A DNA stretch of 64,000 bases. Source: Candidatus Moraniibacteriota bacterium. Its GTDB lineage: Bacteria; Patescibacteriota; Minisyncoccia; Moranbacterales; GCA-2747515. The notes below the pieces were generated by a model. It searched no databases, had not been told where the DNA came from, and worked only from the letters and a program-made list of their open reading frames with translations. Every line of letters starts with the position of its first letter. The first letter of the stretch is position 1. The DNA lies in the NCBI GenBank assembly GCA_016699795.1, contig CP065011.1, forward strand, positions 1,011,449 to 1,075,448, given 5' to 3'. This document shows, in pieces, positions 15,616 through 30,659 of the stretch. Made by a program: the position numbers and the translations under genes.

Positions 15616-16929
15616 ATGCGATACCAAAAAATAGGAATTTTTTCAGCTTTATGCATCCTCGTAATAATTACGTATTATCGTTGGTTTTCTTTTTCATGGT
15701 TTGGTCTTGGGGATTGGAATATATATTTTTCTGAAAATTTACGAGAGTTTTCACTACTTTCTTTATGGAATACAAGTTTAGGTTTTGGAGTTTTGGATGT
15801 GATCGTTTGGAAAATTCCTTATAGTCTCCTTATCTCCTTATTTGGATTTCTTGGTTTTGATTCAAATATTTCGGATAAATTTCTCATTCTGATTCCTTTG
15901 GCATTCTTTTCTTTATTTGCACCTTTTATCCTCTTGAAGAAAATTGTTCGATCAAATATTTCCGCGTTTATAGGAGCATTTATTTTTGCATATTCCAGTT
16001 ATTTTCTTGCTATCCATACGCATGGTCACCAACATCTTTCTATGGCAAGTGTATGGGGCGTATTCGCTCTTTATTTTTGTATACGTTTGGTAGAGGAGAG
16101 GCGGATAGAGTGGGCGGTGCTGGGGGGGATGATACTTGCGATTTCCGGATATTATGATTTTCGATTTGCCTATATTTTCTTTTTTATATGCGGTGGGTTT
16201 CTCTTGGTTTCGTGGGTGAAAGAGGTGAGAGGAGAAAATATGAAAGTAAAGAGCAGGGAGTCTTCTTCTCTCCCTTTGCTAAAAGGGAGTACCCGAGTCA
16301 TCGAGGGGGAGGGATTTGTATCTCAGATGGGGAAAATCCCCCTCAATCCCCCTTTTCCTAAGGGGGAGGAAGACGGAGGGGAAGGAGATTCGATCACAAT
16401 GACGGGGGAAAGAAAGAATGTATGGAATCTTTTTTGGATGAGTACGGTGTTTGTACTGGTATTTGCTGGACTCAATGTTTTTTGGATTTTACCTTTTGCT
16501 ACGGCAGGGGCTATGTCAGAAAATGCAGGAGTGGGACGAGATCTTTTTGGTAATGATTATTTCGAACTTCAAGAAGCACTCTTTCTCTCGCATCCTTTCT
16601 GGACAGGGTATGGAGTTGAGTGGATGTCCAATCAACCAACTCCATGGTGGCTTACTATTTTGGGAATCTTAGCTTTTGCAGGTTTCTGGGTAGGAAGAAA
16701 AAATCCATATGTAGTATTTTTCGCTCTCATTGCTCTCATCGGAATATTTTTGGGTAAACAAGTCGATCCTCCCTTTGGAAACTCGTATTACTGGCTCTAT
16801 GAGAATCTCCCGGGCTTCAATGCCTTTCGTGAAGCTTCCAAATTTTATGTACTCATTGCTCTGGGCTACTCCGTCGGCCTCGCCTCCCTCATCAACTGGC
16901 TTTTACCGAAAGAGGGAAGTGAAAAATAA
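15616..16929 (+). CDS. N-terminal (TM-domain) half of a third YfhO-like paralog, split from its C-terminal half at 30660-31670; carries an in-frame GC-rich insert
   Basis: It is multi-TM. Its end (NSYYWLYENLPGFNAFREASKFYVLIALGYSVGLASL) aligns with EYLYEKVPVLALFRTPDTKFGLPIILILSLIIGYF of paralog A and stops in the short cytoplasmic loop before the last N-domain TM. Confidence 0.6.
   Translation: MRYQKIGIFSALCILVIITYYRWFSFSWFGLGDWNIYFSENLREFSLLSLWNTSLGFGVLDVIVWKIPYSLLISLFGFLGFDSNISDKFLILIPLAFFSLFAPFILLKKIVRSNISAFIGAFIFAYSSYFLAIHTHGHQHLSMASVWGVFALYFCIRLVEERRIEWAVLGGMILAISGYYDFRFAYIFFFICGGFLLVSWVKEVRGENMKVKSRESSSLPLLKGSTRVIEGEGFVSQMGKIPLNPPFPKGEEDGGEGDSITMTGERKNVWNLFWMSTVFVLVFAGLNVFWILPFATAGAMSENAGVGRDLFGNDYFELQEALFLSHPFWTGYGVEWMSNQPTPWWLTILGILAFAGFWVGRKNPYVVFFALIALIGIFLGKQVDPPFGNSYYWLYENLPGFNAFREASKFYVLIALGYSVGLASLINWLLPKEGSEK
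16266..16385. repeat. GC-rich palindromic mini-element inserted in frame within CDS 15616-16929
   Basis: ctctccctttgctaaaagggagtacccgagtcatcgagggggagggatttgta plus ccccctt ttcctaa gggggagg. Copies of the same element occur at 16966-17020, 26170-26228 and, inverted, at 22871-22925. It encodes ..SSLPLLKGSTRVIEGEGFVSQMGKIPLNPPFPKGEEDGGEGDS. Confidence 0.7.
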
Positions 16930-17050
16930 AGAAGTTTAACAAAAAATTAAGAATGCAAAAATTCCTCTCTAGCTCTCCCTTTGCCAAAAGGGAGTACTCC
17001 TAAGGGGGAGGGATTTGTATAAATTTCAAGCTCTAAGAAAAATTGTTGAA
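16864..17050. repeat. master copy of a 187-bp segment (3' end of gene 15616-16929 plus downstream) duplicated at 26071-26257 and partially elsewhere in the island
   Basis: Near-identical string from ggctactccgtcggcctcgc to ctctaagaaaaattgttgaa at both positions. Confidence 0.8.
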
Positions 17051-17066
17051 TCTGCCTTTTCTTACT

Positions 17067-17095
17067 TTGACAAAATCTCAAACACTAGTTATATT
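17067..17095 (+). promoter_or_regulatory. sigma70-like promoter TTGACA-17-TATATT upstream of the copy-2 MKQLSTR gene
   Basis: Hexamers with a 17-nt spacer, 24 bp upstream of ATG 17119. Confidence 0.45.
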
Positions 17096-17118
17096 TCCTA
17101 TAATTAAGCATCAAATCT

Positions 17119-17838
17119 ATGAAACAACTTTCTACTCGAACCATCGCTATTATTACCCTTATAGCCATTGCCTTTCTAGCATTAGGAGTTTTTGTGATGC
17201 AAAAAGTTTACAACACACCTCTTCCTGTTGTAGAGAATGAAGTTGAGCAAAAAGAAAATCCGAAAACAAATGATGAAACCTTCATTACTGACGTTGATAT
17301 GAATGTAGAGAATTGGCAAACAAAAGAAACGGAATTTTTTACTATTAAATTTCCGAAGGAGTGGTATTTCTTTCAAACAAACTATGATACGATGGGATAT
17401 AACTCATACGTTATTACAAACAATCCAAATTTCGATATTAGTAAATATCCAGACATTAGTATTGGAGTGGGGAGGATCTATCCTTTGGATCTGATGAATG
17501 AAACAGAAATTGTAATTTCATCAAACTATCTTGGGGATGCTACTGCTAATTCAGGAACGTCTTTGGATTACATAGAATATATGATCAATAGTATGAGGGA
17601 ATACGTAGGTTTTACCGTTGCATGTCAATATATGTCGAGTATGGACAGTATCCCTCTTGCTACGTATTGCTCATTTACAGATGAGGATAATAAGCAAAGA
17701 GTTGGAACGTATTATGCTTCTTATCCAATACGTACGTTTGGATTCTCTGCTCGTGTGAAAAAGGAAAATAATATGGTTTTAGAAAAAATATTGGAGGGTA
17801 TTGTACAAAATTATTCTGTAACTGTTTCATATCGGTAG
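17119..17838 (+). CDS. MKQLSTR-family signal-anchored protein, copy 2
   Basis: N-terminal MKQLSTRTIAIITLIAIAFLALGVFVMQKVYNTPLPVVENEVEQKENPKTNDETF. The central block VDMNVENWQTKETEFFTIKFPKEWY..NNPNFDISKYPDI is shared with ORF 27474; the C-terminus is unique. Confidence 0.75.
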   Translation: MKQLSTRTIAIITLIAIAFLALGVFVMQKVYNTPLPVVENEVEQKENPKTNDETFITDVDMNVENWQTKETEFFTIKFPKEWYFFQTNYDTMGYNSYVITNNPNFDISKYPDISIGVGRIYPLDLMNETEIVISSNYLGDATANSGTSLDYIEYMINSMREYVGFTVACQYMSSMDSIPLATYCSFTDEDNKQRVGTYYASYPIRTFGFSARVKKENNMVLEKILEGIVQNYSVTVSYR

Positions 17839-17962: not shown

Positions 17963-18685
17963 ATGAAACTGTTAGCGCAAGGCGTATTGAGTGTATTCTT
18001 AGTATTGTCCAGTCTGGGTGCAGTCGCCGGAACGAATGAGTGCTACGGCTACACGTCTACAACGAATCATTTCCCATGCCTTTATCCAACTGGCAACTGC
18101 ACCTGGTGGGCAGCATATATGCGCCCCGATATTGCAGAAGTGATCACCGGAAGCGGATGGGATGGTGGAAATTGGATCAACAAGCTCAATGGAATGATTC
18201 CTGTTGGTTCCGTTCCTGGAGTTGGGGCAATCGTGGAGTTCGATGGGCACGTTGCCTTCGTAACGAACGTGTTGGATGGGGGTGCATTTCGTGTTTCGGA
18301 AATGGATGCTACTGGAAAATTGGGTAATGGTTTGCAATACGCCACCTACTACCCAGGTAGTAGTAATACCTATCATCGCAATACCGATCGCGGATCTGAT
18401 GTTAAAGGGAGTTGGATCCTCAAAGGTTTCATTTACGCTGAAGATCCCGCAATTATTCCTGGCAATCAATTCTCGATCCGTCATGTGGGAAATTATGGTT
18501 GGTATCCAGCATACAGCTCGTGCATTCATGCCGAGTCATGGTATGGATTTAATAATGATAAAAAGATCGTAAGGATCTATCGCTATTCCAACCACAACCC
18601 GTGTCAATGGATCTACGAAACACTTTATCCGAAAGAGGTCAGTTACAATGCACTCTTCGGAAATGCTAATGCGTGCTATCAATAA
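17963..18685 (+). CDS. secreted CHAP-domain peptidoglycan hydrolase (amidase/endopeptidase), copy 2
   Basis: Signal peptide. Catalytic Cys in GNCTWWAAYMRP and His in DGHVAFVTNV. About 65% aa identity to ORF 28304-29002. Confidence 0.8.
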   Translation: MKLLAQGVLSVFLVLSSLGAVAGTNECYGYTSTTNHFPCLYPTGNCTWWAAYMRPDIAEVITGSGWDGGNWINKLNGMIPVGSVPGVGAIVEFDGHVAFVTNVLDGGAFRVSEMDATGKLGNGLQYATYYPGSSNTYHRNTDRGSDVKGSWILKGFIYAEDPAIIPGNQFSIRHVGNYGWYPAYSSCIHAESWYGFNNDKKIVRIYRYSNHNPCQWIYETLYPKEVSYNALFGNANACYQ

Positions 18686-18717
18686 GACGCAAAACGACCA
18701 TTTGAGAGGTGCTAATC

Positions 18718-20022
18718 GTGAAAACGAAACGATTCTTTGAAGTAGTAATTACTTCCATTTTCCTCTTTGCTTTCGCAAGCGTTTACGCTTCCGATTGCGG
18801 AGAATTCGCAACTATCTCTGTTCCAAGTTCGGGCGGAGGATATGTGAGTGGAGGCGATGGCTACATCCCACCCCAAAATCCAACTCCCACAGACCCTGTC
18901 AATCTTACCCAAGATACTGACATTCTTGGTGCTGACGGCAATGAACTCTATGCTGGACGTGACTCAATCCTTTCTGGAATGAAAGTAAAAGTCCGCGTTG
19001 CAGTGCAAGCTGAAGGAGGGGATGCAGGAAACTGGAAAACGAGAAACGATGCCGACACTATAGACATCGCTTACTCCGTAAGTTCCAATGATGGTCCTTG
19101 GACTCAGTTTGATACTGGGTACATTACCATTTCTAAACTTGATGAGGGACAAACTATCACGGAAACGAAGGAATACACTATTCCAAATGGCATCTCTTCG
19201 ATTGCATTTCGCACAGAAACCGATTATCGAGATGAAGTCGAAGAATATGATGAAGGAGATAATACCAGTCGCGTAGAACGATTTGAGATTTCAAATCTCA
19301 AACCTGACTACAGCATCACTGATGTTTTCTTCTCTGATCCCAGTACAGGAGCCATATACCGAAATGGTGCAATACTCTTAGAAGATAGAGAGTGGTATCC
19401 CTATTGTGAGATAATGAGCACAGGAGAAATCAATGCTCCTATCAACGTAGAAGTTTCTCACCGTATGGATGGAACAGAAAGAGATACTGATACGCTAGGA
19501 ATAGATGATATTTCTTTGGGACAAACATATCGTGAAGTCGTCTGGAGCAAATGGAAACTGGGAAATACAGGAACACGTACCTATACGTGCTGTGTAGATT
19601 CCAAAGGTTGGCTTCCAGAACTCAATGAGAGCAATAATTGCAAGAGTGCACTCTTTACGATAGTTCCATGGAAACCTAGTATCACCATCACTGATCTCTG
19701 GGTAGACTATGATGGAAAAGTAGTTCGTAATGGTGGAACAGGGAGCAAAGGGAAACGTTATCATCCTAATGTTACCTTCACCAATACGGGAAACAAAACA
19801 ATGTCATGTGGTGCTGAAGCGAAGTACTACATCAATTCTAACTCCTATCGTGATCGTGATACTGTTGGTATTCTGGGAGTAGGAGGTATCGGGCACGAGA
19901 GAGTTGATAACGACAATATCAAACTTGGAGATGGAGGATGGAGATCCTATCGTGTTACTCTCCAATCTAGCTGTGGAGAGTTTCCTACAGTGGAAAGAAC
20001 GATGAGTTTCTATCTTCGATGA
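18718..20022 (+). CDS. secreted CARDB-like repeat protein, copy 2
   Basis: GTG start at 18718 after a GAGAGG RBS. Signal peptide KTKRFFEVVITSIFLFAFASVYA|SD. Motifs EYDEGDNTSRVERFEI and LPELNESNNC (E.NE.NN of CARDB). Near-identical to 29035-30339 and to the 3' 1.15 kb of 1318-3237. Confidence 0.6.
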   Translation: MKTKRFFEVVITSIFLFAFASVYASDCGEFATISVPSSGGGYVSGGDGYIPPQNPTPTDPVNLTQDTDILGADGNELYAGRDSILSGMKVKVRVAVQAEGGDAGNWKTRNDADTIDIAYSVSSNDGPWTQFDTGYITISKLDEGQTITETKEYTIPNGISSIAFRTETDYRDEVEEYDEGDNTSRVERFEISNLKPDYSITDVFFSDPSTGAIYRNGAILLEDREWYPYCEIMSTGEINAPINVEVSHRMDGTERDTDTLGIDDISLGQTYREVVWSKWKLGNTGTRTYTCCVDSKGWLPELNESNNCKSALFTIVPWKPSITITDLWVDYDGKVVRNGGTGSKGKRYHPNVTFTNTGNKTMSCGAEAKYYINSNSYRDRDTVGILGVGGIGHERVDNDNIKLGDGGWRSYRVTLQSSCGEFPTVERTMSFYLR

Positions 20023-20084
20023 TTCTCAAGAGACTTCCCGCAAGGACGCGGGAAATACTGAAATGATTTATTATGATAGATATA

Positions 20085-20111
20085 CCAGCTTTGGAAGGGG
20101 CTGGTTTTTTT
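20085..20111 (+). terminator. Rho-independent terminator (CCAGCtttggaaggGGCTGG + T8)
   Basis: Stem-loop plus T-run directly after stop 20022. Confidence 0.65.
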
Positions 20112-20688
20112 TGTTTTTTTTCGCATCATTACTCATCGAACCGGCTTTTACCTCCCTCCCATCATCCGAAAGAGGGAAGGAAATAAAAAATGCTTTATAG
20201 CGGTATTTTTCACAAACACTTGACGTAGAAAGGTTATATATATCCATAAAGCATGTATATGCTTTATGGACTAAAGGTTATAAATTATATAACATCTAGT
20301 GCATGATATTAAAAAAGCTTTATAGAAGCATTTCTTATAAACATATGAAAAATGCTAATATAATAGCATATTTCATGCAGGAGATGTCTTTTAGGAGGAA
20401 ATTTAGCAAAGAGATCGTGCTCTCCTAAAATTTGGATTACATTCCAAAAATTTACTTTTACACTTATTATAGCTTATATAAAGCGTTATATTTATAAAAA
20501 AATTTCAGATAATCTCAAAAAGAAAATATTATTTTTATGACCTTGGTATTCACAATGCAATTCTTATTGATTTTTTTTGAAAATTCTCGATGATATACTA
20601 CAAAGCTTTCATTTGGGAACTCTTAGAAAACGCAAGCAACCTCGGAACTGATACCTATATGAAATGGACAGAGGATAGCGATGCTTAA

Positions 20689-21609
20689 CTAAGTAGTTCC
20701 TAGCTCCCGAAGTATACACACTTCGGGAGTTTTTAATTTTTCAAGAATCTCTTTTGCAGGATAGGCGCAGTTTAATTGTTTCGTGTTGGATATTTCTTTG
20801 ATAAAAGCAATACAACTATCAGGCAATAATAATAGAGTCTTGTCCATATCACTCAGGATGCTTAATGCCTTATTGCGAACGTCCGGTGCTCCGTATTGTA
20901 GCAAAGATACGAGAGTTTTTGTAAGTAAAATTTTCATTTCTTGGGACATGCCTGTGATACAAGGAATGAGCTGTCGTAGTAAAATATTCGTACAATCTCT
21001 ATAAAGTTTTTTTCTAAGAAGATATAAAATATTTTCTAATAGAACAGGATCTTTATAGATCCATTGTAGCGCTATTCCAGCATCAATAGATCCGTTCTCC
21101 ACAAGATTGATAAGATCGCTAGTTTTATCAGTACACAATTTTTGCACATCCTGTTCTATTGATCGTAGTATAGGATCTTTTGAGAAAAAAATAGTATCGT
21201 CCCGTTCTAATCCAAGATTACCTCCATTGGCATATAGACTATCTGTGCGTCTTTGATGTGTATTTATTATAGCAATTACTTCTCTAAACCATTTTGGAGT
21301 TTGTAGGTGAGATTTTCTGGATAGGTCTGGATTATTACTCTTTTTGGAGTACAAATCAATCGTCAAAACAGTTTCTAATGTATTGTTATGTTGATATAGA
21401 GGATTCATTATTTCTGCATTATATCCTCGAACGTTGTAGTATTCCCATATTTCTTTCTCAGCACGGTTATATTCTGTAGTAGAATATTTTGATCCGATAA
21501 TAAGACTACTCAGATCCATTGCAAAAGTTATAGGACAAGGATATTTATTTTTTTGATGATGCCATACTTCAATATCTAATAGCACATATTCAAGCTTAAT
21601 ATTTTGCAT
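20689..21609 (-). CDS. hypothetical protein (306 aa) in an AT-rich part of the island
   Basis: Long ORF of uncertain function. The N-terminal LLDIEVWHH is loosely like a DEDD exonuclease motif I, and the C-terminal helical repeats look HEAT-like. Both are weak impressions only. Confidence 0.4.
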   Translation of the reverse strand: MQNIKLEYVLLDIEVWHHQKNKYPCPITFAMDLSSLIIGSKYSTTEYNRAEKEIWEYYNVRGYNAEIMNPLYQHNNTLETVLTIDLYSKKSNNPDLSRKSHLQTPKWFREVIAIINTHQRRTDSLYANGGNLGLERDDTIFFSKDPILRSIEQDVQKLCTDKTSDLINLVENGSIDAGIALQWIYKDPVLLENILYLLRKKLYRDCTNILLRQLIPCITGMSQEMKILLTKTLVSLLQYGAPDVRNKALSILSDMDKTLLLLPDSCIAFIKEISNTKQLNCAYPAKEILEKLKTPEVCILRELGTT

Positions 21610-21689
21610 ATTCCACTTTTAACAATTGATATCTCTAGTATAGAACATAGAGGTTACTGTCGGATAGTATCTCTTATATTCTCAACAAT

Positions 21690-21960
21690 GAAGCACTCTT
21701 TCTCTCGCATCCTTTCTGGATGGACAGGGTATGGAGTACAGCGGATGTCCAATCAACCGACTCCTTGGTGGCTTACTATTTTGGGAATCTTAGCTTTTGC
21801 GGATTTCTGGGTAGGAGTTTTCCCTCGTCATCGCGAGTCCGCCGACTGGCGGAGAAGCGATCCAGAAGGAAAGGAAAATGCATGGATTGCCACATCGCAG
21901 ATTCCTCGCAATGACACTCCCTTCCTCATCAACTGGCTTTTACCAAAAGAAAGAATGAAA
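21690..21960 (+). pseudogene. degenerate partial copy of the 3' part of gene 15616-16929, interrupted by a GC-rich hairpin insert
   Basis: Encodes ..EALFLSHPFWTGYGVQRMSNQPTPWWLTILGILAFADFWVG.., matching 16570-16695. A foreign about 110-bp insert follows (tccgccgactggcgga hairpin), then ..ctcatcaactggcttttacc. Confidence 0.7.
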
Positions 21961-21984
21961 TGAAAAAAGAAAAAGTATAAAAAA

Positions 21985-22281: not shown

Positions 22282-22870
22282 AGTTACATTATACTAAAGA
22301 AGTAACTTTTTGATAAGAAAGACCGTCTTCAATGCCTTTCGTGAAGCTTCCAAATTCTAACTCTGGGGGCTACTCCGTCGGCCTCACCTCCCTCATCAAC
22401 TGGCTTTTACCGAAAGAGGGGAGAAAATAAAGCCATGGTGACGGAGAATAAAATAAAACTTAAATATAATTTGACTTATGTTTAAGTTTGACTTAATGCA
22501 TACTATAAAATAAGTAATTGAAAAAATATTCATACAATGCAAATTTAGATATATCTATTTATACATACAATGCTCAAAAAGTTATAAAAAGACACCTCGA
22601 GTAACTTTTGTTTTACTCTCAGATGGACCCTCTCCCGCTACGGCGGGAACGGAGGAAAAGGAAAGAATAAAAGAGAGGAAGAAGGGAATAGCGTTAAGAA
22701 TAGTGTATTATATTGACCGAAATAGTATGTATTTACGTCAATATGCTAACCAAAACATAAAGAGAAAATGTAAACAAAATCCACGAAATAATATGATTTC
22801 GTGGATAGACAATCCTTGAAATTGACATATTTCGTGGATTCAGTCTTATGAATGGTATGAAATCAAGAAA

Positions 22871-22925
22871 ATCCCTCCCCCTCGATGACTCGAGTACTCC
22901 CTTTTGGCAAAGGGAGAGAAGAAGT
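22871..22925. repeat. inverted copy of the GC-rich palindromic mini-element
   Basis: Reverse complement equals cttctctccctttgccaaaagggagtactcgagtcatcgagggggaggga (compare 16266-16320). Confidence 0.7.
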
Positions 22926-23205: not shown

Positions 23206-24453
23206 ATGACTTTTAAAAGAGATCTTTTGGAAGAGGTAGTGGCAGATCAGGCGCTTTCATTTGCATCACGTAATCGTGGGATAGCACGGTTGGTGAATTT
23301 TGACAATCACAAAAAATCTAAAATGATTACCGTTATATCTGGTGTTCGCCGAAGTGGAAAGTCTACACTCCTTTCGCAATTTTTCGATCTCTTGGGAGGT
23401 GGACATTATTTAAATTTCGATGACGAGCGCTTATCCGAATTTGTTTTGGAGGATTTTCGAACACTTCTCTCAATTTTTGATGGGAAAAAAGAATCAGATA
23501 CTTTCTTTTTTGATGAAATTCAAAATGTTTCTGGGTGGGAACGATTTGTACGCCGTCTTCATGATGAGGGAAAAAAAGTATTTGTAACAGGATCGAATGC
23601 CACGCTTTTGAGTGGTGAGTTAGGAACACATTTAACTGGTCGGTATAAAAAAATAGAGTTATATCCATTTTCTTTTTCTGAATATATTTGTTTTAAAGAA
23701 ATAAATATCACGGATAAAACATCGAAAAACTGTGCGAAAATTGTTAGAGGATTTGATGAATATGCAGAGATGGGTGGTTTTCCGGGATTTTTACTCGAGA
23801 ACGACAGAGAAATTTTACAGAGAATTTATGAGGATATTCTCTATCGTGATCTTTTGGTACGATTTCAAATACGCGAAGTAGAGGCATTTCGTAAGTTAGC
23901 GTCATTTCTTTTTGCTAATGTAGGAAAAAACATTGGATATTCTTCTCTAAAAAATATTTTGGGTTTTGCAAGTGCTACATCGGTAAAGAATTACGTTTCT
24001 TTTTTGGAAGAGAGCTTTTTGCTTTTTGAAATGAGAAAATATGATGCGTCTCTCAAAAAACAATATGTCTCAGAGAAGAAAATATATGCTGTGGACAACG
24101 GACTTCGTAATGCCATTTCTTTTTCTGCTTCCGAGGATCGCGGTAGGATGTTGGAAAATGCGGTGTATATGGAACTGCGCCGACGTGGGAAAGACGTGTT
24201 TTTTTTCAAAGAAAAGCGAGAATGTGATTTTGTTGTTCGCAAGGGAATACGAATTGCTGAGGCGATTCAGGTCTGCGAGAATATTTCTGATCTAGAAACA
24301 AAAGATCGAGAGGTATCGGGACTTGTTGAAGCTATGAATGTATTGCATCTTTCTTCGGGAACGATTATCACTCGCTATGAAGAAGAAACAATTGAGATTG
24401 AGGGAAAAAAAATATACATTGTTCCAGCATGGAAGTGGTTTTTGGAGATATAA
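23206..24453 (+). CDS. AAA+ ATPase of the AAA_14/DUF4143 family
   Basis: Walker A ITVISGVRRSGKSTLL; Walker B FFFDEIQNV; C-terminal ECDFVV typical of DUF4143. A 12-bp imperfect palindrome (GAATATTAACATtacaaATGTTGATATTC) lies just upstream. Confidence 0.8.
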   Translation: MTFKRDLLEEVVADQALSFASRNRGIARLVNFDNHKKSKMITVISGVRRSGKSTLLSQFFDLLGGGHYLNFDDERLSEFVLEDFRTLLSIFDGKKESDTFFFDEIQNVSGWERFVRRLHDEGKKVFVTGSNATLLSGELGTHLTGRYKKIELYPFSFSEYICFKEINITDKTSKNCAKIVRGFDEYAEMGGFPGFLLENDREILQRIYEDILYRDLLVRFQIREVEAFRKLASFLFANVGKNIGYSSLKNILGFASATSVKNYVSFLEESFLLFEMRKYDASLKKQYVSEKKIYAVDNGLRNAISFSASEDRGRMLENAVYMELRRRGKDVFFFKEKRECDFVVRKGIRIAEAIQVCENISDLETKDREVSGLVEAMNVLHLSSGTIITRYEEETIEIEGKKIYIVPAWKWFLEI

Positions 24454-24699
24454 TGTATTGCAAAAACGTTTACATTTTTACTCTCGTGGGAATACTTCTG
24501 GGCAAACAAGTGTCAGAACCTTTCTCCACACTTTACTCCTGGCTCTATGAAAACCTCCCATCATCCGAAAGAGGGAAGGAAATAAAAAAATGCTTTATAG
24601 CGGTATTTTTCACAAACACTTGACGTAGAAAGGTTATATATATTAAAGTATATATATGTTTTATGAACTAAAGGTTATAAATTATATAACATCTAGTGT

Positions 24700-25281
24700 A
24701 TGATATTAAAAAAAAGCTTTATAGATTCTTTGTATCTTTCGCCTCAATCCGTCTTTTCTAGTAAAGAAATAGCTATTCTTACAAAAGAAGCCGATCCTCT
24801 TTCTCTCAAGTCAAAACTTGCCTATTATGTGCGTAGAGGAAAACTCGTTCGTTTGCGAAAAGGTTTTTATGCAAAACCAGAAAAATACGAAAAAAAAGAA
24901 TTTGCCGTTCGTCTTTATACACCATCATATATCAGTTTTGAAACAGTTCTTGCGCAAGAAGGGATTATTTTTCAATATTACGCAACCATATTTGTTGCTA
25001 GTTATGTGTCTCGGGAGATACAGCTTTCCGATGCTACTTTTCGATATAGAAAAGTAAAGGATGCTATTCTTTTGAATAGAAAAGGTATCGTAGATAAAGA
25101 TGGGTTTTTTGAGGCAAGTAAAGAAAGAGCTTTTCTAGACATGCTTTATAGTAATCCAAAATATTATTTTGATAATTTGCGATCGATCGATTGGGACGCG
25201 TGTTTTGATCTTGTTTCTTTGTATCAAAAAAAATCTCTCGAAAAAACACTTAAAGAATATTATAACTTGTATGCTAAATAG
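24700..25281 (+). CDS. abiEi: AbiEi-like antitoxin/transcriptional regulator (type IV TA, abortive infection)
   Basis: About 190 aa. wHTH-like N-terminus with the KLAYYVRRGKLVRLRKGFYA (RGvY) motif typical of AbiEi_4. Directly upstream of, and overlapping, the AbiEii gene. Confidence 0.55.
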   Translation: MILKKSFIDSLYLSPQSVFSSKEIAILTKEADPLSLKSKLAYYVRRGKLVRLRKGFYAKPEKYEKKEFAVRLYTPSYISFETVLAQEGIIFQYYATIFVASYVSREIQLSDATFRYRKVKDAILLNRKGIVDKDGFFEASKERAFLDMLYSNPKYYFDNLRSIDWDACFDLVSLYQKKSLEKTLKEYYNLYAK

Positions 25282-25978
25282 AGAAAAACACGAGCTTGTA
25301 ATGACGCAAATACTCAAAGATGTGTATGCAGATACTTTTATAGGACCACTTCTGGGATTTAAAGGTGGCACCGCGGCATATTTATTTTATGGATTAGAAA
25401 GATTTTCTGTCGACTTGGATTTTGATCTTTTGGAGGTTTCGGAAGAGAAAAGAACTATCGTATTTGATCGCATTTCTCAGATTCTTCTTCAATACGGAAC
25501 GATACGAGATTCACAACAAAAAGAAAATACTATTTTTTTACTTCTTTCTTATGGAGCAGGAGAATATGGCATAAAAGTTGAAGTAAATACCAGAAAGGTC
25601 GGATCTTTGTATGAAATGAAACAGTATTTTGGCATTCCAATGCTTGTTATGAAAAAAGAATCGATGTTTGCAAGTAAATTAATAGCGCTCATAGAAAGAA
25701 AAAAATTTGCGGCTCGAGATATGTATGATGTATATTATTTTCTAAAAAATAATTGGGATATTGATATTAATGTTTTGAATAAGTATGGAAAGAAAAACAT
25801 TGTTTCTTTTTTGGATGAATGTATTCATTTTGTAGAAAATACCCCGGATAACTCTTTACTGGGAGGATTGGGAGAACTTGTCGAGGAAACGAAAAAAGAC
25901 TTTATTCGAAATAAAATGAAGATGGAAATAGTTTTCTTTCTTTCCATTCGGAAAGAACAATACAAAAAGAGATACTAA
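25271..25978 (+). CDS. abiEii: AbiEii/AbiGii-family nucleotidyltransferase toxin
   Basis: FKGGTAAYLFYGLERFSVDLDFDL matches the DUF1814/AbiEii signature (KGGTAL..yg..R.S.DlD). The start is either ATG 25271 (overlapping the AbiEi stop) or 25301. Confidence 0.7.
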   Translation: MLNREKHELVMTQILKDVYADTFIGPLLGFKGGTAAYLFYGLERFSVDLDFDLLEVSEEKRTIVFDRISQILLQYGTIRDSQQKENTIFLLLSYGAGEYGIKVEVNTRKVGSLYEMKQYFGIPMLVMKKESMFASKLIALIERKKFAARDMYDVYYFLKNNWDIDINVLNKYGKKNIVSFLDECIHFVENTPDNSLLGGLGELVEETKKDFIRNKMKMEIVFFLSIRKEQYKKRY

Positions 25979-26070
25979 CTTTTTTAACAAAGAAAATTAT
26001 TTGGATTTTATAAGTTGAAAGAAAGAAATGGAGGTTAGTAATAGTTCCTTTATGTACTCATTACTCTCCG

Positions 26071-26257
26071 GCTACTCCGTCGGCCTCGCATCCCTCATCA
26101 ACTGGCTTTTACCGAAAGAGGGAAGTGAAAAATAAAGAAGTTTAACAAAAAATTAAGAATGCAAAAATTCCTCTCTAGCTCTCCCTTTGCCAAAAGGGAG
26201 TACTCCTAAGGGGGAGGGATTTGTATAAATTTCAAGCTCTAAGAAAAATTGTTGAAC
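26071..26257. repeat. second copy of the 187-bp 3'-end/downstream segment of gene 15616-16929 (includes one GC-rich mini-element)
   Basis: Near-identical to 16864-17050. Confidence 0.8.
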
Positions 26258-26326
26258 TTAGTATCGAAAAACTTGACGTAAAGCCATATTTTAGGTATAT
26301 TTTTTGTACATTATTTTAAATACATT

Positions 26327-27022
26327 ATGAAACAGCTTTCTACTCGAACCATATCAATTATTTCTCTTATAGCCATTGCCATTTTGGCATTAGGAATTTT
26401 TGCAATGCAAAGAGTTTACAACACACCTCTTCCTGTTGTGGAGGATGAAGTTGAACAAAAAGAGAATCTGAAAACAAATGATGATAATAACTCTAAAAAA
26501 GAGCAACAAAATATAGATGAAAATATCATGGCTATGGTAGAAACATTTGATGTTAGTGATTGGCAATTATATTCAAATAATGAACTTGGATTTAGTGTGA
26601 AACTTCCACCAACTTTTGATCTTAATGATCCCAGGATTTATGAAGATGAAAAATTCTTTGTAAAAAGTGTTTGTTTTCCAGATAATCAAGATATGCAGCT
26701 ATATGCCAATGAAGGAGCAGAATCAAGGGGTCCAAGATTATTATGTTTTAAGAAAGGAGCATTGGGAAATGTGGATGACCTTATGACTAAATTTAAGGAT
26801 AGTAGTAATCAATTTGTAAAATATAATATTCTTATTTCTCATGATATTTCTGCAAAACTTTATTTTGGCTTTGGGAGTGGAATAATCTTTGAGTCTAATA
26901 AATATAGATTGACAATCGAAGACTCTTACACCTTCAAAAGCGCTACCATTTTTAACAATGTTTCAAATTTGTATTACCTTGGCATGATCAAAACATTTGT
27001 TTTATTTGATGAGAAAAAGTAA
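26327..27022 (+). CDS. MKQLSTR-family signal-anchored protein, copy 3a
   Basis: N-terminal MKQLSTRTISIISLIAIAILALGIFAMQRVYNTPLPVVEDEVEQKENLKTNDD; unique C-terminal domain; conserved promoter/leader upstream. Confidence 0.75.
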   Translation: MKQLSTRTISIISLIAIAILALGIFAMQRVYNTPLPVVEDEVEQKENLKTNDDNNSKKEQQNIDENIMAMVETFDVSDWQLYSNNELGFSVKLPPTFDLNDPRIYEDEKFFVKSVCFPDNQDMQLYANEGAESRGPRLLCFKKGALGNVDDLMTKFKDSSNQFVKYNILISHDISAKLYFGFGSGIIFESNKYRLTIEDSYTFKSATIFNNVSNLYYLGMIKTFVLFDEKK

Positions 27023-28303: not shown

Positions 28304-29002
28304 ATGAACATGCTAATGAAGACTGTGCTATACACACTTCTTTTCTTATCTAATATGGGAGTATATGCCGGAACAGATGAATGCTATGGATATAAATCTA
28401 CAACGAGTCATTTTGCGTGTGGTGAATATGGCAATTGTGTATGGTGGGCTGCATATATGCGTCCGGATATTGCTAGGGTTATAACGGGAAGTGGTTGGAA
28501 TGGTGGAGATTGGTACGCTAAACTTAAGGGAACGATTCCAGTTGGTTCCGTTCCGGAAGTTGGTGCAATTGTGGAATTTGAAGGCCACGTTGCGTTTGTT
28601 AAGGATATACTGGACGAAGGAGCATTCGCTGTATCAGAAATGGATTATTATGGGCAGTTTGGTTCGGGCGTACAATATGCCACATACACTCCCAATGGTG
28701 ATGGGACCTATCAACGAAATAATGAATCAAAGAAATGGACCCTCAACGGTTTCATTTATGCTGAAGATCCGGCAGTTATCCCTGGCAACACTTTTACGGT
28801 ACGTCGGGTAGGTAACTATGCTTGGCATCCTGCAGACAGTTCGTGTATCAATGCAAAAAATTGGTACGGACTCAATAGCGATCGAAAAATCGTACGTACG
28901 TACGACGATAGCCAAGTATGCCAATGGATCTACGAAACACTCTACCCACAAGAGGTAAGCTATAATGCACTCTTCGGAAATGCTAATGCGTGCTATCAAT
29001 AA
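28304..29002 (+). CDS. secreted CHAP-domain peptidoglycan hydrolase, copy 3
   Basis: Catalytic Cys in GNCVWWAAYMRP and His in EGHVAFVKDI. Signal peptide. AGAGGAG RBS. Confidence 0.8.
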   Translation: MNMLMKTVLYTLLFLSNMGVYAGTDECYGYKSTTSHFACGEYGNCVWWAAYMRPDIARVITGSGWNGGDWYAKLKGTIPVGSVPEVGAIVEFEGHVAFVKDILDEGAFAVSEMDYYGQFGSGVQYATYTPNGDGTYQRNNESKKWTLNGFIYAEDPAVIPGNTFTVRRVGNYAWHPADSSCINAKNWYGLNSDRKIVRTYDDSQVCQWIYETLYPQEVSYNALFGNANACYQ

Positions 29003-29034
29003 GACGCAAAACGACCATTTGAGAGGTGCTAATC

Positions 29035-30339
29035 GTGAAAACGAAACGATTCTTTGAAGTAGTAATTACTTCCATTTTCCTCTTTGCTTTCGCAAGCGTT
29101 TACGCTTCCGATTGCGGAGAATTCGCAACTATCTCTGTTCCAAGTTCGGGCGGAGGATATGTGAGTGGAGGCGATGGCTACATCCCACCCCAAAATCCAA
29201 CTCCCACAGACCCTGTCAATCTTACCCAAGATACTGACATTCTTGGTGCTGACGGCAATGAACTCTATGCTGGACGTGACTCAATCCTTTCTGGAATGAA
29301 AGTAAAAGTCCGCGTTGCAGTGCAAGCTGAAGGAGGGGATGCAGGAAACTGGAAAACGAGAAACGATGCCGACACTATAGACATCGCTTACTCCGTAAGT
29401 TCCAATGATGGTCCTTGGACTCAGTTTGATACTGGGTACATTACCATTTCTAAACTTGATGAAGGAGTTACTATTACAGAAACGAAAGAATACACTATTC
29501 CAAATGGCATCTCTTCGATTGCATTTCGCACAGAAACCGATTATCGAGATGAAGTCGAAGAATATGATGAAGGAGATAATACCAGTCGCGTAGAACGATT
29601 TGAGATTTCAAATCTCAAACCTGACTACAGCATCACTGATGTTTTCTTCTCTGATCCCAGTACAGGAGCCATATACCGAAATGGTGCAATACTCTTAGAA
29701 GATAGAGAGTGGTATCCCTATTGTGAGATAATGAGCACAGGAGAAATCAATGCTCCTATCAACGTAGAAGTTTCTCACCGTATGGATGGAACAGAAAGAG
29801 ATACTGATACGCTAGGAATAGATGATATTTCTTTGGGACAAACATATCGTGAAGTCGTCTGGAGCAAATGGAAACTGGGAAATACAGGAACACGTACCTA
29901 TACGTGCTGTGTAGATTCCAAAGGTTGGCTTCCAGAACTCAATGAGAGCAATAATTGCAAGAGTGCACTCTTTACGATAGTTCCATGGAAACCTAGTATC
30001 ACCATCACTGATCTCTGGGTAGACTATGATGGAAAAGTAGTTCGTAATGGTGGAACAGGGAGCAAAGGGAAACGTTATCATCCTAATGTTACCTTCACCA
30101 ATACGGGAAACAAAACAATGTCGTGTGGTGCTGAAGCAAAGTACTACATTAATTCTAACTCCTATAGAGATAGAGACGGGATCGATCCTCTTTCCGTGAA
30201 TCAATCCGGACATGAGAGAGTCGAGAACGACAATATCAAACTTGGAGATGGAGGATGGAGATCATATCGTGTTACTATCCAATCTAGCTGTGGAGAGTTT
30301 CCTACAGTGGAAAGGACGATGAGTTTTTATCTTCGATGA
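29035..30339 (+). CDS. secreted CARDB-like repeat protein, copy 3
   Basis: Identical to copy 2 except for small patches (EGVTITE versus EGQTITE; a C-terminal 35-aa patch). Confidence 0.6.
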   Translation: MKTKRFFEVVITSIFLFAFASVYASDCGEFATISVPSSGGGYVSGGDGYIPPQNPTPTDPVNLTQDTDILGADGNELYAGRDSILSGMKVKVRVAVQAEGGDAGNWKTRNDADTIDIAYSVSSNDGPWTQFDTGYITISKLDEGVTITETKEYTIPNGISSIAFRTETDYRDEVEEYDEGDNTSRVERFEISNLKPDYSITDVFFSDPSTGAIYRNGAILLEDREWYPYCEIMSTGEINAPINVEVSHRMDGTERDTDTLGIDDISLGQTYREVVWSKWKLGNTGTRTYTCCVDSKGWLPELNESNNCKSALFTIVPWKPSITITDLWVDYDGKVVRNGGTGSKGKRYHPNVTFTNTGNKTMSCGAEAKYYINSNSYRDRDGIDPLSVNQSGHERVENDNIKLGDGGWRSYRVTIQSSCGEFPTVERTMSFYLR

Positions 30340-30392
30340 TTCTCGAGAGACTTCCCGCAAGGACGCGGGAAATACTGAAATGAATGAAGATG

Positions 30393-30428
30393 AACCAGTT
30401 TTGAAAAAGGCTGGTTTTTTTGTTTTTT
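30393..30428 (+). terminator. Rho-independent terminator (AACCAG..CTGGTT + T-run)
   Basis: Same structure as 3291-3322. Confidence 0.7.
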
Positions 30429-30659
30429 TTCGCATCATTACTCATCAACTGGCTTTTACCTCCCTCCCATCATCCGAAAGAAGAAATAAAGTAACGCCAT
30501 GGCGATCCAGAATTTCTCCCCCTGAGAAAAAAAGGGAGCTTTTTTCTTAAAGGAAAGAATTATACGAGAAAAGGGAAATATTCATGGTTACATGAAGGGT
30601 GTAAAAAATAGTAACCAATTGGAGTAACAAAATTTCTTCTTGTGTGTTAATATGGCTAT

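What the first reader, a model, noticed from the sequence alone, without database searches (positions are those of the whole stretch)
16266..16385. GC-rich palindromic mini-element inserted in frame inside a membrane-protein CDS
A roughly 120-bp GC-rich segment sits inside CDS 15616-16929 in an otherwise about 30% GC gene. It carries CTCCCTTTGC.AAAAGGGAG and CCCCCTT..GGGGGAGG palindromes and the string GGGGGAGGGATTTGTA. The same element is intergenic at 16966-17020 and 26170-26228 and inverted at 22871-22925. The ORF stays open through it, adding about 40 aa (..LPLLKGSTRVIEGEGFVSQMGKIPLNPPFPKGEEDGGEGDS..) to a predicted loop. This looks like a REP/MITE-like mobile palindrome tolerated as an in-frame insertion.
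Basis: seen in the sequence. Interest (0 to 1): 0.6.

Follow-up and report, generated by a model that had tools for sequence, protein, structure and literature searches.

The report
Palindromic repeat element inside a gene
A 115-base GC-rich palindromic repeat that normally lies between genes in tiny "candidate phyla" bacteria sits in frame in a floppy loop of a working membrane-protein gene, much like the palindromic elements of Rickettsia, so it is a new example of a known phenomenon.

Summary
At 16260-16374 (+) there is a 115-nt GC-rich element made of two inverted copies of one unit (box AAATCCC(TC)CCCTC, a linker, and an 8-bp or 7-bp hairpin) around a 13-nt spacer. It lies in frame in CDS 15616-16929.

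Forty full-length homologues (~700 aa) and one short-form orthologue (P0007) have only a 10-16-aa loop at this site. The window has 71 aa. AlphaFold models the insert as disordered (pLDDT <50) between two confident helices. The flanking codons are under purifying selection (dN/dS 0.11-0.30).

The same doublet is intergenic in a Moraniibacteriota MAG and in another metagenome contig. A compact version lies in frame inside a KsgA/RsmA gene. Other short-form orthologues carry different mini-elements in the same loop.

- The copies at 16973 and 26179 are half-elements and represent one event, copied by a 187-nt 99% segmental duplication.
- Local gene GC is 43-45%, not 30%.

Not shown: how the element moves. 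I found no transposase, no target-site duplication, and no genome-wide copy count.

Verdict: a REPIN/BIME-like doublet behaving like a Rickettsia palindromic element. It is a new member of a known kind and moderately interesting.

The parts
15616..16929 (+). Host CDS of 437 aa. It is the short-form paralogue of a multi-TM protein family of ~700 aa, probably GT-C-like, and sits at the end of a glycan-biosynthesis gene cluster.
   Evidence: ORF. Homologues. AF2 pLDDT 84, pTM 0.82. Weak Foldseek hits, all to GT-C enzymes, best PglB E=9e-3. Upstream GT2, GDP-mannose dehydratase, GT1 and methyltransferase genes. dN/dS 0.11-0.30 outside the insert.
16216..16428 (+). Expanded inter-helix loop, residues 201-271 (71 aa). 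Relatives without an insert have 10-16 aa here.
   Evidence: Loop-length survey on alignment A2. Alignment A4 including the empty-site orthologue P0007. pLDDT <50 across most of residues 211-262.
16260..16374 (+). Complete palindromic doublet element of 115 nt, 52% GC. Its translation lies within ..ESSSLPLLKGSTRVIEGEGFVSQMGKIPLNPPFPKGEEDGG..
   Evidence: Modular parse and alignment with six other doublets. BLAST matches to L001-L004 and L059.
16270..16289 (+). Hairpin H1, CTCCCTTT-GCTA-AAAGGGAG (8-bp stem). It is preceded by the terminal GTCTTCTTCT (16260-16269).
16305..16320 (+). Box of the left unit, GGGGGAGGGATTTGTA (reverse complement of AAATCCCTCCCCC). Linker TACCCGAGTCATCGA lies at 16290-16304.
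16321..16333 (+). Variable spacer between the two units. It is 13 nt by this parse (16 nt when the GTA of the box is counted with it). Counted the same way as the 16, the other copies have 1 to 32 nt.
16334..16374 (+). Right unit: box AAATCCCCCTC, then AAT, then hairpin H3 CCCCCTT-TTCCT-AAGGGGG (16348-16366), then terminal AGGAAGAC.
16372..16427 (+). Right-hand loop sequence (GACGGAGGGGAAGGAGATTCGATCACAATGACGG...). It is shared with the orthologue that carries a different insert (L007) and is probably an older element remnant.
   Evidence: 89% identity over 56 nt to L007 1298-1353. Sequences compared directly.
16973..17020 (+). Intergenic half-element (singlet: H1, a short linker and the box). 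It lies 44 nt after the host gene's stop codon and upstream of a sigma-70-like promoter at 17067-17095.
26179..26226 (+). The same singlet, copied within the 187-nt 99% segmental duplication 26070-26256. It is not an independent insertion.
   Evidence: (D12).
22866..22924 (-). Intergenic singlet of the long-linker variant, 96% identical over 56 nt to 16262-16317.
   Evidence: (I1).

Best explanation
The segment is one copy of a dispersed, non-coding, GC-rich palindromic repeat family of Moraniibacteriota and related candidate-phyla bacteria.

**Anatomy**
- The basic unit is about 45-60 nt: a conserved box (AAATCCC(TC)CCCTC), a linker, a short GC-rich hairpin (C-rich arm, TTT, a 2-5-nt loop, AAA, G-rich arm) and a short purine-rich tail.
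- The full element is two such units head to head around a variable spacer. This is the architecture of a REPIN or BIME.
- Lone units (singlets) also occur.

**Proposed history**
- One doublet entered the short loop between two transmembrane helices of a GT-C-like membrane protein paralogue.
- The loop is permissive. The added length kept the reading frame, and this frame has no stop codon.
- The protein therefore stayed functional, and the insert is now translated as an unstructured stretch of roughly 40 aa, within a loop that is about 58 aa longer than in relatives.
- It has been inherited, or exchanged by recombination, between related lineages.

**Shown**
- The anatomy of the element.
- Insertion relative to homologues.
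- Independent intergenic and intragenic copies elsewhere.
- Purifying selection on the host gene.
- A predicted disordered loop at the insert.

**Inferred**
- That the element is or was mobile. By analogy this would be through a hairpin-recognising Y1 (RAYT or IS200/IS605-type) transposase acting in trans, or through recombination at the hairpins.
- That the peptide itself has no function.
For: 1. **More than chance.** The motif occurs 4 times against 0 expected. The box AAATCCCYCCC occurs 6 times against 0.09 expected.
2. **Empty sites exist.** 40 of 40 full-length homologues and the short-form orthologue P0007 have 10-16-aa loops.
3. **The doublet recurs with unrelated flanks.** Its modules are near-invariant and its spacer variable in L002, L003 and L004 (MAG M50B92), L059 and L030. 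Most of the 50 metagenome matches to the 20-nt hairpin, few of which carry the rest of the element, lie outside long ORFs.
4. **A second in-frame event in an unrelated gene.** A compact doublet sits on the opposite strand inside a KsgA/RsmA gene (Pfam RrnaAD 2e-58; PDB 6ifs 5e-44), in the linker between its domains.
5. **The loop is a hotspot.**
   - The orthologues P0002/P0003, P0004, P0005 and P0006 carry different inserts at the same site.
   - Components of three of these inserts recur elsewhere. P0003's match intergenic DNA in L004 (97% over 30 nt) and P0005's match intergenic DNA in L059. P0004's recur at a second site within the P0004 and P0005 genes.
6. **The host gene is alive.** dN/dS is 0.11-0.30 in the flanks. 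Synteny with an upstream full-length paralogue is conserved. The same insert is present in two independent assemblies.
7. **The insert is predicted disordered.** pLDDT is 42-50 there, against more than 90 in the flanking helices.
8. **Hairpin arms co-vary.** Among units that were not used as search seeds, the arms appear as CCCCC/GGGGG, CTCCC/GGGAG and CCCTC/GAGGG. Complementarity is 0.45, against 0.28 +/- 0.03 for shuffled partners.
Against: - No transposase of any kind is present among 50 window ORFs scanned with Pfam.
- No target-site duplication is visible, and no nucleotide-level empty site was available for comparison.
- Copy number looks low. There are 4 exact hits in the M50B92 representative genome. 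The window holds 4 copies, of which only 3 are independent and all lie between 16 and 26 kb.
- The conserved box is not the GTAG of classical REPs.
- The predicted fold of the window copy is only modestly better than shuffles (z = -1.8 as RNA, -2.2 as DNA).
- The host gene is a recombination mosaic (54% versus 93-97% nucleotide identity along its length). The insert could therefore have arrived by recombination rather than transposition.
- Protein searches with the insert peptide found no further host proteins.
Confidence: 0.72

Rival explanations
1. The element is not, or is no longer, transposable. The loop acquired it by illegitimate recombination or gene conversion from an intergenic copy, in a locus that recombines heavily. 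The outcome, an in-frame tolerated repeat, is the same, but the mechanism is recombinational.
For: - The host gene is a mosaic. Codons 1-130 are 54% identical at the nucleotide level to L005 and L007, while the rest is 93-97% identical, with a matching GC step from 30.5% to 43-45%.
- A 187-nt block is 99% identical between two loci whose adjacent paralogues are only 62% identical (D12 and D4).
- Six remnants of the 3' end of this gene are scattered over 20-30 kb.
- No transposase and no target-site duplication was found.
Against: The same doublet lies in unrelated contexts: downstream of different genes in M50B92 and L059, and inside KsgA in L030. Homologous recombination cannot operate there, because the flanks share nothing.
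Confidence: 0.18
2. The segment is a functional protein linker or motif, selected for its peptide. Its resemblance to intergenic repeats would then be secondary, for example because the repeats derive from the gene.
For: - The insert peptide is 92% identical between the window and P0001.
- Every short-form orthologue except P0007 has some expansion of this loop.
Against: - The expansions in the other orthologues are unrelated in sequence and are built from different DNA elements.
- P0007 and 40 full-length relatives do without any expansion.
- The insert is predicted disordered.
- Conservation is at the DNA level in non-coding copies, and in the opposite reading direction in KsgA.
- dN/dS within the insert is 0.43, based on only 11 changes, and is not lower than in the flanks.
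Confidence: 0.05
3. The host ORF is a decaying pseudogene, or two adjacent genes, and the frame is open through the element only by chance. A further variant is that the junction is a metagenome assembly chimera at a repeat.
For: - The gene is a truncated form (437 aa against ~700 aa).
- The region contains several remnants of the same family.
- GC-rich sequence has few stop codons. A random 174-nt stretch at 55% GC stays open about 10% of the time.
Against: - dN/dS is 0.11-0.30 on both sides of the insert.
- The short form, with its synteny, is conserved across lineages down to about 50% identity.
- All seven expanded short-form homologues keep the frame open through 45-90-aa inserts. The protein database does, however, favour intact ORFs.
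- AF2 builds one confident fold from both halves.
- The same in-CDS junction is assembled independently in two samples (L005, L006).
Confidence: 0.05

Closest known systems
Rickettsia palindromic elements (RPEs; Ogata et al. 2000 Science 290:347; Ogata et al. 2002 Genome Res 12:808; as summarised in review PMC10969869)
   Same: - Palindromic repeats of about 100-150 bp that occur both between genes and in frame inside unrelated protein-coding genes, without destroying them.
- The added peptide sits in a permissive part of the host protein.
- The hosts have small, reduced genomes.
- Here there are two unrelated host genes: the GT-C-like membrane protein and KsgA.
   Different: - A different phylum (Patescibacteria/CPR, not Alphaproteobacteria).
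- No sequence relationship was tested or is expected.
- The element here is GC-rich in an AT-rich genome and is built from two short hairpin units.
- Only two in-frame events were found, whereas about half of the RPEs described in R. conorii are in ORFs.
- Here several different element families occupy the same loop in different lineages.
REP sequences, REPINs and BIMEs (Bertels & Rainey 2011, PMC3116915; PMC3337134)
   Same: - Short GC-rich imperfect palindromes next to a conserved box.
- Doublets of two inverted units around a variable spacer, alongside singlets.
- Mostly extragenic, often just after stop codons.
- Mosaic clusters with other small hairpin modules, as in L001, L004 and L059.
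   Different: - No RAYT gene was seen.
- The box is AAATCCC.., not GTAG.
- The copy number seen is a handful, not hundreds.
- Classical REPs are by definition extragenic, and this copy is translated.
- The core is about 95% conserved between lineages whose orthologous protein is only about 50% identical. That would be unusual for REPs, which (from my own knowledge, not tested here) differ between species.
Prokaryotic MITEs found intragenically (ERIC, BOX, Correia/NEMIS, Nezha; Delihas 2007 and 2008, cited in PMC10969869 and PMC2229807)
   Same: Small, non-autonomous, inverted-repeat-bearing elements that can carry open frames and make in-frame fusions.
   Different: - No clear terminal inverted repeats beyond about 8 imperfect bases (GTCTTCTT.. 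and ..AGGAAGAC).
- No target-site duplication.
- No parent insertion sequence was identified.

Membership tests
REP / REPIN (RAYT-associated) | A short (about 20-40 nt) GC-rich imperfect palindrome as the repeat unit | tested here: met
   H1 has an 8-bp stem and H3 a 7-bp stem. Arms co-vary across unit variants.
REP / REPIN (RAYT-associated) | [quoted passage not shown] | tested here: met
   Seven doublets align with invariant modules and spacers of 1-32 nt. Singlets lie at 16973, 22866, 26179, and in L001 and L007.
REP / REPIN (RAYT-associated) | High copy number dispersed around one genome (tens to hundreds) | tested here: inconclusive
   There are 4 copies in the 64-kb window (3 independent, all between 16 and 26 kb). 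There are 4 exact 23-nt matches in the fragmented MAG M50B92. No complete genome was available.
REP / REPIN (RAYT-associated) | A cognate RAYT (Y1 transposase) gene in the genome, typically flanked by REPs | not testable with these tools
   No Y1_Tnp or any other transposase hit among 50 window ORFs. The window is only a fraction of the genome, and the genome and metagenome scan quotas were already used.
REP / REPIN (RAYT-associated) | A conserved GTAG tetranucleotide 5' of the palindrome | tested here: not met
   The conserved flanking box is AAATCCC(TC)CCCTC. No GTAG is present.
REP / REPIN (RAYT-associated) | Extragenic location | tested here: inconclusive
   Most copies are extragenic. The copy in question, its orthologue copy and the KsgA copy are translated.
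Rickettsia palindromic elements (RPE) | A palindromic repeat inserted in frame in functional protein-coding genes, as well as in intergenic DNA | tested here: met
   Host gene dN/dS 0.11-0.30. KsgA carries the element in frame. Intergenic copies exist.
Rickettsia palindromic elements (RPE) | Sequence membership in RPE-1 to RPE-10 and occurrence in Rickettsia | not tested
   No RPE reference sequences were available in the tools. The host is a Moraniibacteriota-like CPR bacterium. Membership is not claimed; only the behaviour is analogous.
MITE | Terminal inverted repeats matching a parent insertion sequence | tested here: inconclusive
   The ends GTCTTCTTCTCTCCC and GGGGGAGGAAGAC are imperfectly inverted. 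No parent IS is known.
MITE | Target-site duplication flanking the element | tested here: not met
   No direct repeat is shared by the flanks of the seven doublets. The only repeat is a GAGGGATTC in L004, which is itself part of the unit. No nucleotide-level empty site was available to confirm this.
Rfam-described RNA families | A match at or above a family's gathering score | tested here: not met
   No match in the whole window. Only sub-threshold chance hits in 16100-17150.

The most novel reading that the evidence does not exclude
Candidate-phyla (Patescibacteria) genomes carry a so far undescribed set of GC-rich palindromic mini-elements. At least two families are involved: the AAATCCC-box/hairpin doublet studied here, and the GTCAT..GCGAG / CTCGC..ATGAC type.

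On this reading, these elements routinely colonise permissive loops of real proteins, including essential ones such as KsgA, and repeatedly hit the same loop of a surface-glycan enzyme paralogue in different lineages. That would be a phylum-wide counterpart of the Rickettsia RPE phenomenon.

The box-plus-hairpin unit also appears in many contigs whose GC content (45-57%) is well above that of these CPR contigs. This would point to a widespread, unrecognised hairpin-specific mobilising enzyme, or to a conserved host factor that binds the box.
Probability: 0.35. Interest if true: 0.6.

Novelty: new member of a known kind. Interest (0 to 1): 0.42.

Why it matters
**What it would show.** Selfish palindromic DNA can live inside working genes in bacteria other than Rickettsia. 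Here the hosts are ultra-small CPR bacteria, whose genomes are usually thought of as streamlined.

**Practical consequences**
- Such inserts inflate and diversify predicted proteins.
- They create spurious "hypothetical" ORFs. P0125 and P0139 are examples.
- They break metagenome assemblies at repeats.
- They can mislead homology and domain annotation.

**A possible handle on the biology.** The recurrent colonisation of one loop by different elements offers a natural map of permissive sites in a GT-C-like enzyme family of unknown function.

**Limits.** The kind of element (REP, REPIN, MITE or RPE) and the in-frame tolerance are already well known. No mechanism of mobility was established here.

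Tried and rejected
- **Protein search with the 44-aa insert peptide** (search for homologous proteins): no candidates were returned. This is uninformative, because even P0001 was missed.
- **Exhaustive phmmer of the 41-aa translation against 1.84 billion representatives**: 47 hits.
  - Nearly all of the 47 hits have several repeated matched stretches at 33-46% identity, and four of the six I read (P0121, P0122, P0124, P0133) are unrelated repeat proteins, three of them KWG-type ("GFIDKTGKIVINPQF").
  - P0125 and P0139 are spurious ORFs read across arrays of the right-hand unit.
  - No new host proteins were found.
- **Rfam** at gathering and E-value thresholds: nothing.
- **tRNA scan**: none.
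- **Viral contig scan for the hairpin**: 0 hits, so nothing suggests a phage origin.
- **Intrinsic terminator role.** Only a weak 5-bp terminator-like site lies in the singlet at 16997-17010, no more than shuffles give. Rejected as the main function.
- **CRISPR repeat.** One metagenome hit (L011) is a CRISPR array that happens to share the hairpin. The window copies are not arrayed. Rejected.
- **Covariation counting on the doublet alignment A3.** Not run, because the paired columns are invariant and therefore uninformative. I used non-seed units from the wider family instead. That box pattern was loose, so many of the 46 units are background.
- **Exact look-up of the window protein in the assembly collection**: not on record.
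- **Estimating organism divergence from neighbouring GT genes against L059**: the genes compared are not orthologous (25-30% identity), so the attempt was abandoned.
- **Literature searches for REP, REPIN or MITE in CPR/Patescibacteria**: nothing relevant was found in the library searched.
Full report
**1. The observation**

The sequence at 16260-16400 reads GTCTTCTTCT-CTCCCTTTGCTAAAAGGGAG-TACCCGAGTCATCGA-GGGGGAGGGATTTGTA-TCTCAGATGGGGA-AAATCCCCCTCAAT-CCCCCTTTTCCTAAGGGGG-AGGAAGAC....

- The 20-nt hairpin CTCCCTTTGCYAAAAGGGAG occurs four times in the window: 16270+, 16975+, 22897- and 26181+. None appeared in 100 dinucleotide-preserving shuffles.
- GGGGGAGGGATTTGTA occurs at 16305, 17004 and 26210, with a degenerate copy at 22866-.
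- ORF 15616-16929 (437 aa) reads through the segment. Of the six reading frames of the element, only the one in use lacks a stop codon.

Three corrections apply.

1. The other window copies are only the left half of the element.
2. 16973-17020 and 26179-26226 lie in a 187-nt block that is 99% identical (16864-17050 and 26070-26256, D12). That is one event plus a segmental duplication.
3. The gene is 30.5% GC only in codons 1-130. Around the insert it is 43-45% GC, against 52% for the element. The window overall is 33.8% GC, and the two upstream paralogues are 24-26%.

**2. Anatomy**

Comparison with copies elsewhere shows that the roughly 115-nt segment is one composite unit.

- The left module is H1, a linker, and GGGGGAGGGATTT(GTA).
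- The right module is AAATCCCCCTC, AAT, H3, and AGG.
- The spacer between them varies from 1 to 32 nt (measured from the end of GGGGGAGGGATTT; 16 nt in the window).

Read on the opposite strand, the left module is AAATCCCTCCCCC, a linker, a hairpin, and AGAAGAAGAC. That is the same design as the right module. The element is therefore two inverted copies of one unit (box, linker, hairpin, purine-rich tail), head to head. The half-copies in the window are singlets.

The predicted fold of 16262-16400 has the two terminal hairpins, a central stem formed by the two boxes, and a closing stem formed by the termini. The energy is -60.2 kcal/mol as RNA. Because G- and C-rich shuffles also fold well, the z-score is only -1.8 as RNA and -2.2 as DNA.

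Across units that were not used as search seeds, the hairpin arms appear as CCCCC/GGGGG, CTCCC/GGGAG and CCCTC/GAGGG. Complementarity is 0.45, against 0.28 +/- 0.03 for shuffled partners. Palindromy is therefore maintained through paired changes.

**3. It is an insertion into a living gene**

The host belongs to a family of multi-TM proteins of about 700 aa from Moranbacteria and other CPR bacteria. The family has no Pfam match.

- In 40 of 40 full-length members the corresponding loop is 10-16 aa and rich in K and R. In the window it is 71 aa.
- The window gene is a short form (about 390-530 aa) that lacks the C-terminal domain.
- This short form recurs in other contigs. In L005, L006, L008 and L059 it lies directly downstream of a full-length paralogue, and in the window and L059 at the end of a glycosyltransferase cluster.
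- One short-form orthologue, P0007, has an empty loop (FFFVSNEALRSDRIRV).

AlphaFold2 with a 47-sequence alignment gives a confident model (pLDDT 84, pTM 0.82). Most of residues 211-262 have pLDDT <50 and no secondary structure. They lie between helices 182-209 and 264-286. Foldseek against the PDB gives only weak hits, but the leading ones are nearly all GT-C glycosyltransferases: PglB at 9e-3, then STT3, EmbA/B/C, AftA and Pmt4. This fits the gene neighbourhood.

Outside the insert, dN/dS against orthologues is 0.11-0.30. The gene is therefore under purifying selection and is not a pseudogene.

The same in-CDS element is present in P0001, which was assembled independently in two samples (L005, L006). 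It is 94.9% identical over 198 nt. That argues against an assembly artefact.

**4. It is a dispersed element**

- An exact-pattern scan of one genome per species found the hairpin-plus-TAC motif only in Moraniibacteriota MAG M50B92, on four contigs.
- In M50B92, the complete doublet lies downstream of unrelated genes in L002, L003 and L004, and a singlet lies in L001.
- A further intergenic doublet lies in L059, at about 1320-1435, downstream of an AAA_14/DUF4143 gene.
- In these intergenic regions the element sits among other small GC-rich hairpin modules, in a BIME-like mosaic.
- The 20-nt hairpin alone also hits many metagenome contigs of 45-57% GC. Several of these show the same box-plus-hairpin unit in head-to-head or tail-to-tail pairs, for example L022, L023, L032, L050, L053 and L054. 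The unit design is therefore widespread.
- No viral contig carries it.

**5. A second in-frame event and a hotspot**

In L030 a compact doublet with a 1-nt spacer lies on the opposite strand inside a 359-aa ORF. That ORF is KsgA/RsmA (Pfam RrnaAD 2e-58; B. subtilis KsgA 6ifs 4.8e-44). The solved-structure alignment runs across the insert, which falls in the linker between the two domains.

The same KsgA has another in-frame insert of about 40 aa, with the ends GTCATCCTGA...TCAGAATGAC. A relative of that second element type lies in the window at 21827-21915, inside a remnant of the host-gene family.

The other short-form orthologues carry quite different sequences in the same loop.

- P0002 and P0003 have 90 aa built from, among other parts, CTCGAGGACTCGTCAGTCGAAATGAC and a ...CTCGCAATGACGG element. 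The former is also intergenic in L004, at 97% identity over 30 nt.
- P0005 has 82 aa, with components that recur intergenically in L059.
- P0006 has GGAATGACAGGGAAGG repeats.
- P0004 has an AATGCAAAATGCAAAATG-type element. That element also fills a second site, after GFWVG, in P0004 and P0005.

The window and L007 share the loop flanks exactly but differ completely in between. This is what independent colonisation, or replacement, of a permissive loop would look like.

**6. Mechanism**

What is shown is a REPIN/BIME-like doublet that behaves like a Rickettsia palindromic element. It is tolerated in frame because it sits in a disordered loop.

What is not shown is how it moves.

- None of the 50 window ORFs scanned matches a transposase.
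- The flanks of the seven doublets share no target-site duplication.
- Copy number in any one genome could not be established.

By analogy with REPs and IS200/IS605 ends, a hairpin-specific Y1 transposase acting in trans is the most economical model.

The main rival is recombination, and there is evidence for it.

- The host gene is a mosaic, with 54% nucleotide identity in codons 1-130 and 93-97% afterwards.
- The locus is full of duplicated blocks and gene remnants.

Recombination cannot, however, explain copies that sit in unrelated flanks.

The element core is about 95% identical between lineages whose orthologous host protein is only about 50% identical. This implies either constraint on the DNA, for example as a binding site, or recent spread. 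I could not distinguish the two.

**7. Comparison with known systems and novelty**

In-frame palindromic repeats are documented for Rickettsia RPEs and occasionally for ERIC, BOX and other MITEs (review PMC10969869). Doublets of inverted REPs are REPINs (PMC3116915 and PMC3337134).

- The element meets the structural REPIN features: palindrome, doublet, singlets, and mostly extragenic location.
- It fails the GTAG feature.
- It could not be tested for a RAYT or for high copy number.
- It is not claimed to be an RPE family member.

Full-text searches for REP, REPIN or MITE together with CPR/Patescibacteria found nothing relevant.

I rate it a new member of a known kind and give it an interest of 0.42. 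The phenomenon is known. Its occurrence in CPR genomes, the shared hotspot loop and the doubly invaded KsgA make it a worthwhile lead rather than a surprise.

Noticed in passing
L030:209-1288 (metagenome contig Ga0210057_1056746): A KsgA/RsmA rRNA dimethyltransferase gene carries two in-frame GC-rich palindromic inserts. One is a compact doublet of the family studied here (955-1028, opposite strand). The other is an element of about 40 aa with the ends GTCATCCTGA...TCAGAATGAC (about 537-672).
   Followed up: yes
window 21827-21915 (inside ORF 21604-21963): An 89-nt palindromic element (GTCATCGCGAG...CTCGCAATGAC) sits in frame in a remnant of the host-gene family. It replaces about 185 nt of the paralogous sequence. 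The same element type is in the loop of orthologue P0003 (L007).
   Followed up: partly
window 20139-20186, 21900-21963, 22367-22430, 24478-24585, 26069-26132, 30447-30494: Six remnants of the 3' end of the short-form membrane-protein gene (..INWLLPKEGSEK*) are scattered after unrelated genes. Some have internal deletions or small inserts. The region looks like a graveyard of duplicated copies.
   Followed up: partly
window 16864-17050 vs 26070-26256, and 17118-17417 vs 26326-26625: A 187-nt block (gene 3' end plus singlet) is 99% identical between two loci, yet the paralogous small-protein genes just downstream are only 62% identical. This suggests recent gene conversion of the block.
   Followed up: no
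window 15616-16929 vs L005 and L007: The host gene is a recombination mosaic. Codons 1-130 are 54% identical at the nucleotide level (30.5% GC). The rest is 93-97% identical (43-45% GC) to orthologues from other samples.
   Followed up: partly
window 1270-3330, 17963-20120, 28304-30430: A block encoding CHAP-domain and CARDB-domain proteins is present three times at 93-100% identity. Each copy is followed by the same small hairpin (TTCCCGCAAGGACGCGGGAA) and a terminator-like stem.
   Followed up: no
window 3397-3468 and 4487-4554: Another mini-element (CCATCCTCGCGGAGGCGGGGAG ... AAAAATCCCTCCCG) shares the AAATCCCTCCC box with the element studied but has a different hairpin.
   Followed up: no
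L008 3194-3231 and L059 11123-11159 (orthologues P0004 and P0005): There is a second insertion hotspot in the same protein family, after the motif GFWVG (about residue 361 in the window protein). It is filled by an AATGCAAAATGCAAAATG-type repeat (..KMQNAK..). The window gene is empty at that site.
   Followed up: partly
window 59878-60399: Two tandem copies of a 261-nt unit (99% identical) lie inside the 661-aa ORF 59366-61348(-), which has no Pfam match.
   Followed up: no
window 23206-25978; L008 and L059: Accessory and defence-type genes (AAA_14/DUF4143 ATPase in the window and L059, AbiEii toxin in all three, DUF3800 in the window and L008) recur in the same contigs as the short-form gene, in the window and in distant orthologous contigs.
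   Followed up: no
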